A stretch of DNA of 64,000 bases from Escherichia coli (GTDB lineage: Bacteria > Pseudomonadota > Gammaproteobacteria > Enterobacterales > Enterobacteriaceae), in assembly GCF_041886205.1 (NCBI RefSeq), contig NZ_CP169029.1. One strand, given 5' to 3'. Below are positions 51,182 through 51,836 of the stretch, one piece after another; the stretch's first letter is position 1; each line of letters opens with the position of its first letter. A program made the translations under genes and the position numbers. The notes below the pieces were generated by a model. That model made no database searches, was not told the origin of the DNA, and was given only the letters and a program-made list of their open reading frames with translations.

Positions 51182-51448
51182 ATGGACATTAACAACAAAG
51201 CCCGCATTCATTGGGCATGCCGCCGTGGTATGCGCGAACTCGATATTTCAATCATGCCGTTTTTCGAACATGAGTACGACAGCTTAAGCGATGACGAAAA
51301 ACGCATCTTTATTCGTCTGCTGGAATGTGACGATCCGGACCTGTTTAACTGGCTGATGAATCACGGTAAACCGGCCGATGCAGAACTGGAAATGATGGTC
51401 CGACTCATCCAGACACGGAACCGGGAACGTGGTCCTGTGGCAATCTGA
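51182..51448 (+). CDS. sdhE: FAD assembly factor SdhE (CptB antitoxin-like), 88 aa
   Basis: ORF track 51182..51448; conserved RGMRELD motif. Confidence 0.93.
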
Positions 51449-51836
51449 TTTGCGCGTCTCCTGGCGCGCACAGTGGCTTTCCTTGCTGATTCATGGGCTG
51501 GTTGCCGCTGTTATTTTACTCATGCCCTGGCCACTTAGTTACACCCCGTTATGGATGGTGTTACTTTCGCTGGTGGTGTTTGATTGCGTTCGCAGCCAGC
51601 GGCGTATTAATGCTCGCCAGGGGGAAATTCGCTTGTTGATGGACGGGCGTTTGCGTTGGCAAGGGCAGGAGTGGAGCATCGTCAAAGCACCGTGGATGAT
51701 TAAGAGCGGCATGATGCTGCGTTTACGTTCTGATGGCGGTAAACGGCAACATTTATGGCTGGCAGCCGACAGCATGGACGAAGCCGAATGGCGGGATTTA
51801 CGGCGGATTTTGTTGCAACAAGAGACGCAAAGATAA
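51429..51836 (+). CDS. ygfX: Inner-membrane protein YgfX (CptA), 135 aa
   Basis: ORF track 51429..51836, GTG start overlapping the sdhE 3' end by 20 bp; two predicted TM helices. Confidence 0.88.

What the first reader, a model, noticed from the sequence alone, without database searches (positions are those of the whole stretch)
51182..51836. sdhE-ygfX (CptB/CptA) overlapping gene pair
The ygfX GTG start lies 20 bp inside the sdhE 3' end, implying translational coupling between the flavinylation factor SdhE and a small two-TM membrane protein. The pair has been described as a toxin-antitoxin-like module.
Basis: established knowledge. Interest (0 to 1): 0.2.

Follow-up and report, generated by a model that had tools for sequence, protein, structure and literature searches.

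The report
Known overlapping sdhE-ygfX gene pair
This is the well-known E. coli sdhE-ygfX operon, whose two genes really do share 20 bases, an arrangement that is real and old but ordinary; the "toxin-antitoxin" label and the translational coupling remain unproven.

Summary
sdhE (51182-51448) and ygfX (GTG 51429 to 51836) overlap by exactly 20 nt, with ygfX in the +1 frame. RefSeq annotates them the same way, and the locus is present in 5425 of 5426 complete E. coli genomes.

The evidence favours the GTG inside sdhE as the true ygfX start.
- It is the only canonical start between an in-frame stop (51393) and the family-conserved Trp4.
- The downstream TTG (51450) is not conserved as a start codon.
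- The Pfam profile and the AlphaFold model both use residues 2-8.

GTG and the 20-nt overlap are kept in all 80 other Enterobacteriaceae loci. They are also kept in 7 of 11 distant relatives (28-50% identity) whose overlap-encoded residues have diverged. The one non-overlapping relative has ATG and the best Shine-Dalgarno match instead.

Translational coupling is plausible, because the Shine-Dalgarno match is weak, but it is unproven. Published spacing data predict inefficient re-initiation at -20.

The toxin-antitoxin label rests on one study and is disputed by two others. The locus is a core, syntenic housekeeping operon. SdhE is the FAD assembly factor of succinate dehydrogenase. YgfX models as a two-helix membrane protein with a PH-like cytoplasmic domain.

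Already known; low interest.

The parts
51182..51448 (+). sdhE (ygfY/cptB) CDS, 88 aa, the FAD assembly factor. It carries the RGxxE motif at R15-E19.
   Evidence: Identical to PDB chains 1x6i and 6c12. The ATG start is confirmed by Ribo-RET, INRI-seq and an N-terminal peptide in a published table.
51429..51836 (+). ygfX (cptA) CDS, 135 aa. It consists of strand beta1 (residues 2-8), a transmembrane hairpin (12-31 and 36-62) and a PH-like cytoplasmic domain (65-134).
51429..51448 (+). The 20-nt dual-coding overlap. It encodes SdhE residues R83(part)-G-P-V-A-I-stop and YgfX residues M1-V-L-W-Q-S-D7(part).
   Evidence: Most conserved 20-mer of the operon at 0.037 bits per column. Same length in 80 of 80 Enterobacteriaceae loci and 7 of 11 distant loci.
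51429..51431 (+). ygfX GTG start codon
   Evidence: GTG in all 80 Enterobacteriaceae loci. It is the only canonical start between the in-frame stop at 51393 and the Trp4 codon.
51446..51448 (+). sdhE TGA stop codon
51393..51395 (+). TGA stop in the ygfX frame, 12 codons upstream of the GTG. It excludes any upstream start in E. coli.
51417..51427 (+). Weak Shine-Dalgarno-like purines (GGAA at 51417-51420 and GGGAA at 51423-51427). These are at the same time the SdhE Arg-Asn-Arg-Glu codons.
   Evidence: Anti-SD duplex of only -4.3 kcal/mol. Not conserved in distant relatives, where the value ranges from +0.4 to -5.6.
51450..51452 (+). TTG (YgfX codon 8), the only candidate start just outside sdhE. 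Rejected as the start.
   Evidence: Replaced by non-start codons in most other loci, including other Escherichia.
50940..51181 (.). Divergent ygfZ-sdhE intergenic region, where the operon promoter must lie. The promoter was not located.
   Evidence: No consensus sigma-70 match. This is the most variable part of the alignment at 1.28 bits per column.
51840..51869 (.). Inverted repeat (TGACGGCAAAGC / GCTAAGCCGTCA) in the 39-nt gap between the convergent genes ygfX and fldB. It is probably the fldB terminator, because the T-rich tract is on the minus strand only.

Best explanation
This is the conserved chromosomal sdhE-ygfX operon of E. coli. sdhE encodes the small soluble factor that helps attach FAD covalently to SdhA and FrdA. 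ygfX encodes a low-abundance inner-membrane protein. Its N-terminal strand and C-terminal two-thirds together form a PH-like cytoplasmic domain, and a transmembrane hairpin sits between them.

ygfX translation starts at GTG 51429, 17 nt upstream of the sdhE stop codon and in the +1 frame. It has no good Shine-Dalgarno sequence of its own. My inference is that ribosomes translating or terminating on sdhE largely determine access to this poor start site. YgfX would then be made at a low level tied to SdhE synthesis, next to its reported binding partner.

Shown here: the gene identities, the overlap, the start codon and the deep conservation of the geometry. Inferred: the coupling and the ratio-setting role. 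The pair is best viewed as a housekeeping assembly-factor and membrane-partner operon, not a classical toxin-antitoxin module.
For: Identity and annotation.

Start codon. GTG and the 20-nt overlap are present in 80 of 80 Enterobacteriaceae loci. An in-frame stop lies at 51393, and the only other near-cognate codon before Trp4 is CTG at 51435, which is CAG in many Citrobacter and Salmonella. The Pfam Cpta_toxin profile begins at residue 2. Distant homologues align from residue 1 and share the 'VLWxCxLRxS' N-terminus. In the AlphaFold model, residues 2-8 form a beta-strand at pLDDT about 91. In a monomer this strand can only pair with the C-terminal sheet.

Geometry under constraint. 7 of 11 relatives at 28-50% identity keep exactly 20 nt and GTG although the encoded residues differ. 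SdhE tails include RGPVAI, RGAISM, RDSLAL and RGPMPL. Synonymous variation in sdhE collapses over its last 34 nt: third-position entropy is 0.18 bits against 1.05 elsewhere.

Consistent with dependence on sdhE translation. SD matches are weak or absent in the overlapping loci. The one non-overlapping relative (L088, 30-nt gap) has ATG and the strongest SD match at -6.1 kcal/mol. No internal promoter-like site was found.

Co-transcription and the SdhE-YgfX interaction are reported in Serratia. Co-transcription is also reported in Shewanella, but no YgfY-YgfX interaction was detected there.

Housekeeping nature. The locus is core in E. coli. The ygfZ | sdhE-ygfX | fldB-xerD synteny is kept in distant relatives. 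An E. coli ygfY mutant lacks SDH activity and barely grows on succinate.
Against: No direct experimental mapping of the ygfX start was found. ygfX is absent from four published start-site supplements that could be searched (INRI-seq, TRAINSPOTTER, TetRP and the BMC Biol 2017 ribosome-signature study); one of those tables was truncated when stored. Two further papers, Ribo-RET and eLife 2020, had no supplement held.

Coupling itself is untested for this pair. Reporter studies summarised find that coupling declines with longer overlaps and is absent at -25 nt. An elongating ribosome on sdhE would also physically occlude the GTG. No conserved RNA hairpin supports an unfolding mechanism: the consensus fold is -1.37 kcal/mol and the single-sequence z-score is -1.8.

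Four of 11 distant loci changed the geometry (29, 26 or 14 nt, or a 30-nt gap), so it is not essential.

Masuda et al. 2012 did report toxicity of overproduced YgfX that was relieved by YgfY. That paper was not held and is known here only through citations.
Confidence: 0.8

Rival explanations
1. The overlap is a frozen accident with no coupling function. ygfX is initiated de novo by free 30S subunits at a weak site. sdhE translation is irrelevant to it, or even inhibits it by occluding the start.
For: Reporter data summarised show coupling decreasing from -4 to -25 nt overlap and absent at -25. No conserved RNA structure exists that would need unfolding. Four of 11 distant loci changed the spacing. 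Once two frames overlap, purifying selection on both proteins alone can freeze the sequence.
Against: Exactly 20 nt with GTG persists in 7 of 11 lineages even though the residues encoded in both frames diverged strongly, so protein constraint alone does not explain the fixed spacing. Overlapping loci lack a good SD, whereas the single separated locus has ATG and the best SD match. That pattern is expected if the overlap substitutes for an independent ribosome-binding site.
Confidence: 0.3
2. The pair is a bona fide type IV toxin-antitoxin system (CptA toxin and CptB antitoxin). YgfX blocks FtsZ and MreB polymerisation and SdhE counteracts it. The overlap then ensures the antitoxin is always made with the toxin.
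For: Masuda et al. 2012, as cited. Pfam names the family 'Membrane-bound toxin component of toxin-antitoxin system'. The order, upstream small protein then downstream 'toxin', resembles many TA operons.
Against: The Fineran laboratory could not detect a TA phenotype and found a direct SdhE-YgfX interaction, which is contrary to the type IV definition. The Shewanella homologues are not toxic in a TA-like way and show no FtsZ or MreB interaction. The locus is core (5425 of 5426 genomes) and strictly syntenic among housekeeping genes across distant relatives, unlike mobile, patchy TA loci. SdhE has a demonstrated unrelated biochemical role and solved complexes with SdhA and FrdA. No match was sought in PADLOC.
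Confidence: 0.15
3. ygfX is mis-annotated. Translation really begins downstream of the sdhE stop, at TTG 51450 or a later codon, so there is no true coding overlap.
For: TTG at 51450 lies 2 nt after the sdhE stop in this strain. GTG with a weak SD is a poor initiator. No direct start-site data for ygfX were found.
Against: TTG 51450 is CTG, TTA, CTC, CTT, CTA or ATA in other Escherichia and Enterobacteriaceae, and its SD match is weaker still at -2.2 kcal/mol. Trp4 and the preceding Val-Leu are conserved family-wide. Residues 2-8 are matched by the Pfam profile and modelled as a confident beta-strand. Later starts such as ATG 51522 would delete transmembrane helix 1.
Confidence: 0.05

Closest known systems
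E. coli K-12 sdhE (ygfY, b2897) - ygfX (cptA, b2896) operon
   Same: The region is 99.9% identical to annotated E. coli chromosomes. The CDS coordinates, the 20-nt overlap and the neighbours ygfZ, fldB, xerD and dsbC are the same. SdhE is identical to PDB 1x6i and 6c12.
   Different: Nothing of substance. This is another E. coli strain's copy of the same locus.
Serratia sp. ATCC 39006 sdhEygfX operon (McNeil, Fineran and co-workers)
   Same: The two genes are co-transcribed. SdhE flavinylates SDH and FRD. YgfX is a membrane protein that interacts with SdhE.
   Different: The regulation by RsmA, RsmC and FlhDC and the prodigiosin phenotype are Serratia-specific. No equivalent was examined here.
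Type IV toxin-antitoxin systems (CbtA/CbeA, AbiE)
   Same: A two-gene operon of small proteins. The YgfX/YgfY pair was listed as the second type IV example, reported to target FtsZ and MreB.
   Different: This is a core, syntenic housekeeping locus. The two proteins are reported to interact. Toxicity was not reproduced by other groups. The 'antitoxin' has an independent enzymatic-assembly role.
Translationally coupled overlapping gene pairs (ATGA or TGATG type, e.g. trpE-trpD, trpB-trpA)
   Same: Co-directional genes of one operon whose stop and start regions overlap. The downstream gene lacks a strong ribosome-binding site. The products are reported to interact, as is common for overlapping pairs (title and abstract of PMC10666635).
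   Different: The spacing is -20 rather than the enriched -4, -1 or -8. Coupling efficiency is reported to fall with longer overlaps, so the mechanism and strength cannot be assumed.
Pleckstrin-homology-like (PH / Ran-binding) domains
   Different: There is no sequence similarity to any PH family, and Foldseek is not significant. A transmembrane hairpin is inserted between strands 1 and 2. Membership is not established.

Membership tests
SdhE / Sdh5 / SDHAF2 flavinylation factors (Pfam PF03937; NCBIfam NF008130) | Profile match above the curated cut-off | tested here: met
   PF03937 scores 90.8 bits against 27. The NF008130 equivalog scores 198.4 bits against 120 over residues 1-88.
SdhE / Sdh5 / SDHAF2 flavinylation factors (Pfam PF03937; NCBIfam NF008130) | Conserved RGxxE motif | tested here: met
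   R15-G16-M-R-E19 in the translation. The motif is named in the abstract read.
SdhE / Sdh5 / SDHAF2 flavinylation factors (Pfam PF03937; NCBIfam NF008130) | Promotes covalent FAD attachment to SdhA and FrdA | not testable with these tools
   Literature only. The E. coli ygfY mutant loses SDH activity. Solved SdhA-SdhE and FrdA-SdhE complexes contain this exact sequence.
YgfX / CptA family (Pfam PF07254, formerly DUF1434) | Profile match above the curated cut-off over the full length | tested here: met
   169.1 bits against 27.3, with residues 2-131 matching profile positions 1-132 of 133.
YgfX / CptA family (Pfam PF07254, formerly DUF1434) | Two N-terminal transmembrane helices | tested here: met
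   AlphaFold helices 12-31 and 36-62 of hydrophobic sequence, separated by the conserved PWP loop. No dedicated topology predictor was run.
YgfX / CptA family (Pfam PF07254, formerly DUF1434) | Encoded immediately downstream of sdhE | tested here: met
   True in the window, in 80 Enterobacteriaceae loci and in 11 distant loci.
Type IV toxin-antitoxin system | Toxin arrests growth and the antitoxin relieves it without binding the toxin | not testable with these tools
   Published results conflict. Masuda 2012 is positive (cited). Searches are negative, and an SdhE-YgfX interaction is reported.
Type IV toxin-antitoxin system | Accessory, patchy or mobile distribution. This is typical of TA loci but not strictly defining. 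| tested here: not met
   Present in 5425 of 5426 E. coli genomes, with a median of one copy per genome. Synteny with ygfZ, fldB and xerD is conserved.
Translationally coupled overlapping gene pair | Co-directional genes with the downstream start at or upstream of the upstream stop | tested here: met
   20-nt overlap.
Translationally coupled overlapping gene pair | Spacing within the range shown to couple efficiently (-4, -1, -8, or short gaps) | tested here: not met
   The spacing is -20. One search reports decline with overlap length and no coupling at -25.
Translationally coupled overlapping gene pair | Downstream gene lacks an efficient independent ribosome-binding site | tested here: met
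   GTG start with an anti-SD duplex of -4.3 kcal/mol. Distant overlapping loci range from +0.4 to -5.6, and the separated locus L088 has -6.1 plus ATG.
Translationally coupled overlapping gene pair | Downstream translation depends on upstream translation | not testable with these tools
   Needs reporter fusions with sdhE start or stop mutants.
PH-like fold | Seven-stranded bent sheet capped by a C-terminal helix, with significant structural similarity to PH domains | tested here: inconclusive

The most novel reading that the evidence does not exclude
The fixed -20 spacing is itself the selected feature. On this reading it is a ratio-setting and co-localising device: ribosomes finishing SdhE hand over, inefficiently and therefore at a low fixed ratio, to the GTG 14 nt behind their P site. 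The membrane protein YgfX would then be synthesised beside its partner. YgfX would be a membrane-anchored PH-like adaptor, with a transmembrane hairpin replacing the membrane-binding beta1-beta2 loop of PH domains. It would tether SdhE at the membrane where flavinylated SdhA joins SdhBCD. It would not be a toxin.
Probability: 0.3. Interest if true: 0.45.

Novelty: already known. Interest (0 to 1): 0.15.

Why it matters
As it stands this is a textbook annotation check. The genes, their overlap and both competing functional labels are in the literature and in RefSeq.

1. Comparative evidence settles the start-codon question in favour of the GTG inside sdhE.
2. The 20-nt geometry is retained far outside Enterobacteriaceae even where the residues changed. 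That makes this pair a clean natural test case for whether long (-20) overlaps couple translation, a point on which reporter studies disagree.
3. The genomic behaviour (core, syntenic) and the PH-like model of YgfX argue that TA databases carry this locus under a questionable label.

Tried and rejected
1. RNA-unfolding mechanism. A local hairpin (51414-51439) sequesters the GTG in the E. coli minimum-energy fold, but its z-score is only -1.8. The nine-species consensus fold is -1.37 kcal/mol with little covariation. It is not supported as conserved.

2. Programmed frameshift fusion. The protein database holds SdhE-YgfX fusions of 166-217 aa. Their junctions are scattered across different positions in singleton metagenome clusters, as expected from 1-nt deletions or assembly errors. 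Rejected.

3. Direct experimental start-site data. ygfX was not found in the supplements of INRI-seq, TRAINSPOTTER (table truncated), TetRP or the BMC Biol 2017 ribosome-signature study. Ribo-RET and eLife 2020 had no supplement held. Only the sdhE ATG is confirmed.

4. The primary papers by Masuda 2012, McNeil 2012 and McNeil 2013 are not held. Their content is used only through citing papers.

5. Alignment A1 was too diverse for the genome scan. The narrower alignment A2 returned only Enterobacteriaceae, so distant loci were fetched one at a time.

6. The afdb50 fold library was unavailable.

7. Internal promoter or terminator. No promoter-like site was found, and the two terminator-like hits inside ygfX are at the level expected from shuffles.

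8. A linker-fused SdhE-YgfX structure prediction was considered and dropped. The tool returns no inter-domain error or contacts, so the result could not be interpreted.

Full report
**What is there.** The window between about 49.1 and 54.1 kb carries the E. coli genes trhA (+), ygfZ (-, 49959-50939), sdhE (+), ygfX (+), fldB (-, 51876-52397), xerD (+) and dsbC (+). sdhE runs from ATG 51182 to TGA 51446-51448 and encodes 88 aa. ygfX runs from GTG 51429 to TAA 51834-51836 and encodes 135 aa. The two reading frames share 51429-51448, which is 20 nt, and ygfX is in the +1 frame relative to sdhE. RefSeq annotates exactly this arrangement in a 99.9% identical chromosome. The 901-nt region is found in 5425 of 5426 complete E. 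coli genomes, with a median of one copy per genome. Family assignments are unambiguous:
- SdhE matches Pfam Sdh5 (E 5e-26) and the NCBIfam SdhE equivalog (198 bits against a cut-off of 120).
- SdhE is identical to PDB chains 1x6i and 6c12.
- YgfX matches Pfam Cpta_toxin (E 7e-50) over its full length.

Five lines of evidence favour the GTG.

1. In the ygfX frame a TGA lies at 51393. The only canonical start codon between it and the Trp4 codon is GTG 51429.
2. The one candidate just outside sdhE, TTG 51450 (codon 8), is not conserved as a start. It is CTG in other Escherichia, and TTA, CTC, CTT, CTA or ATA elsewhere. GTG is present at the homologous position in all 80 Enterobacteriaceae loci retrieved. 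The near-cognate CTG at codon 3 is CAG in many Citrobacter and Salmonella.
3. The Pfam profile starts at residue 2. In a library of 1.8 billion representatives, many homologues down to about 30% identity align from their residue 1 to query residue 1. The N-terminal block V-L-W-x-C-x-L-R-x-S is among the conserved parts of the family.
4. An AlphaFold model (pLDDT 91.5) puts residues 2-8 in a beta-strand with about 91 confidence. In a monomer that strand can only pair with the C-terminal sheet, so it is part of the fold. That last step is my inference.
5. Codon-position entropy across 81 Enterobacteriaceae sequences shows clean periodicity in the ygfX frame immediately after the sdhE stop: 0.55/0.05/1.21 bits for codons 8-31.

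I found no direct experimental mapping of the ygfX start. Four published start-site supplements that could be searched lack ygfX, one of them truncated when stored, and two further papers had no supplement held. One supplement does confirm the sdhE ATG by Ribo-RET, INRI-seq and an N-terminal peptide.

**How conserved is the overlap?**
- Within Enterobacteriaceae, the overlap is exactly 20 nt in 80 of 80 loci. The sequence GTGGTCCTGTGGCAATCTGA is almost invariant.
- It is the most conserved 20-mer of the operon: 0.037 bits per column, against 0.47 for the rest of sdhE and 0.67 for the rest of ygfX.
- Third-position variation in sdhE collapses from 1.05 to 0.18 bits over its last 34 nt, as expected for dual coding.
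- Of 11 loci encoding YgfX homologues at 28-50% identity, seven keep exactly 20 nt and GTG. This holds although the residues encoded in both frames have diverged. SdhE tails include RGPVAI, RGAISM, RDSLAL and RGPMPL. YgfX N-termini include VLWQSDL, GQFQCKL, ILWHCDL and DRCRSEL.
- Three further loci have overlaps of 29, 26 or 14 nt. One has a 30-nt gap.
- The separated locus is the only one with both ATG and the best Shine-Dalgarno match (GAGGG, -6.1 kcal/mol). The overlapping loci range from +0.4 to -5.6.
- The SdhE residues encoded in the overlap (83-88) lie outside the Pfam Sdh5 domain, which covers residues 7-79. The FrdA-SdhE crystal entry holds only residues 6-84. The overlap therefore uses a peripheral SdhE tail but a structural element of YgfX.

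**Does the overlap imply translational coupling?** It is plausible but not shown.

- For coupling: the GTG start has a weak SD-like GGAA/GGGAA that doubles as SdhE codons. No internal promoter-like site was found. The spacing is conserved despite sequence change, and the SD-plus-ATG combination appears where the overlap was lost. Overlapping pairs often encode interacting proteins (PMC10666635), and SdhE and YgfX are reported to interact.
- Against a strong claim: a 2025 review summarises reporter work in which coupling fell progressively from -4 to -25 nt overlap and vanished at -25. A ribosome elongating through the end of sdhE must transiently cover the GTG. I found no conserved hairpin that would support an unfolding mechanism.

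My reading is that ygfX is a deliberately poorly initiated cistron whose output is tied to, and kept well below, that of sdhE. I put about 0.5-0.6 on real dependence on sdhE translation.

[quoted passage not shown] An E. coli ygfY mutant has drastically reduced SDH activity and barely grows on succinate, and complexes with SdhA and FrdA are solved.

**Toxin-antitoxin or not?** The TA description exists (Masuda 2012, cited), and Pfam and TA surveys propagate it. Three points argue against it:
- The Fineran laboratory reports being unable to detect a TA phenotype while seeing a direct protein interaction.
- The Shewanella pair fails the TA criteria.
- The genomic behaviour found here is that of a housekeeping operon: core, single-copy and syntenic with ygfZ, fldB and xerD across distant relatives.

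I give the bona fide TA reading about 0.15.

**Verdict.** The feature is already known and of low interest. The small additions are the comparative settlement of the start codon, the deep conservation of the -20 geometry, and the PH-like model of YgfX.

Noticed in passing
window 56033-56048 (+): Exact match to AGGGGGTATCTTTGAC, the Shine-Dalgarno-like element and CUU UGA C slippery site of the prfB (RF2) programmed +1 frameshift. It lies downstream of recJ, as expected from E. coli gene order.
   Followed up: partly
window 36088-36271 (-): 6S RNA (ssrS), Rfam RF00013, 139.8 bits, full length.
   Followed up: no
window 34898-35048 and 35289-35439 (-): Two tandem Sib RNA copies (Rfam RF00113, 134 and 137 bits). 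These are the antitoxin RNAs of type I Ibs/Sib toxin-antitoxin loci, so a genuine TA system lies in the same window.
   Followed up: no
window 49780-49857 (-), and about 49780-49960 generally: naRNA4 / REP-element match (Rfam RF02564, 72 bits) in the trhA-ygfZ intergenic region. The many short palindromic ORFs listed there fit a cluster of REP repeats.
   Followed up: no
window 21785-21827 (-): ES036 (CssrF) sRNA match, Rfam RF02751, 47.3 bits against a gathering score of 37.6.
   Followed up: no
proteins P0002, P0003, P0005, P0008-P0010, P0013, P0022: The metagenome protein database contains SdhE-YgfX 'fusion' proteins of 166-217 aa. Most are singleton clusters (one has two members) with junctions at different positions. 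They are consistent with 1-nt deletions or assembly errors that merge the two frames, not with programmed frameshifting.
   Followed up: yes
L073 (CACSKA010000005.1): A contig titled 'Chryseobacterium sp. 18061' carries an Enterobacteriaceae-type sdhE-ygfX locus (YgfX 76% identical to E. coli). At the junction it is like L066, 'Citrobacter sp. 18056', from the same project. The assembly is probably mislabelled or contaminated.
   Followed up: no
window 51840-51869: A 12-nt inverted repeat fills the 39-nt gap between the convergent genes ygfX and fldB. A T-rich run follows it only on the minus strand, so it looks like the fldB terminator. ygfX has no obvious intrinsic terminator of its own.
   Followed up: partly
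L091 1901-1926: In one distant relative the ygfX 3' end and the convergent fldB 3' end overlap by 26 nt according to the gene calls.
   Followed up: no
L008-L012, L021 and other Citrobacter, Salmonella and Kluyvera loci: In these species the ygfX frame stays open 23 codons upstream of the GTG. Some database entries therefore annotate longer YgfX proteins of 152-154 aa (P0019, P0046). E. coli and Enterobacter have stops 7-11 codons upstream, so these extensions are probably over-calls.
   Followed up: partly
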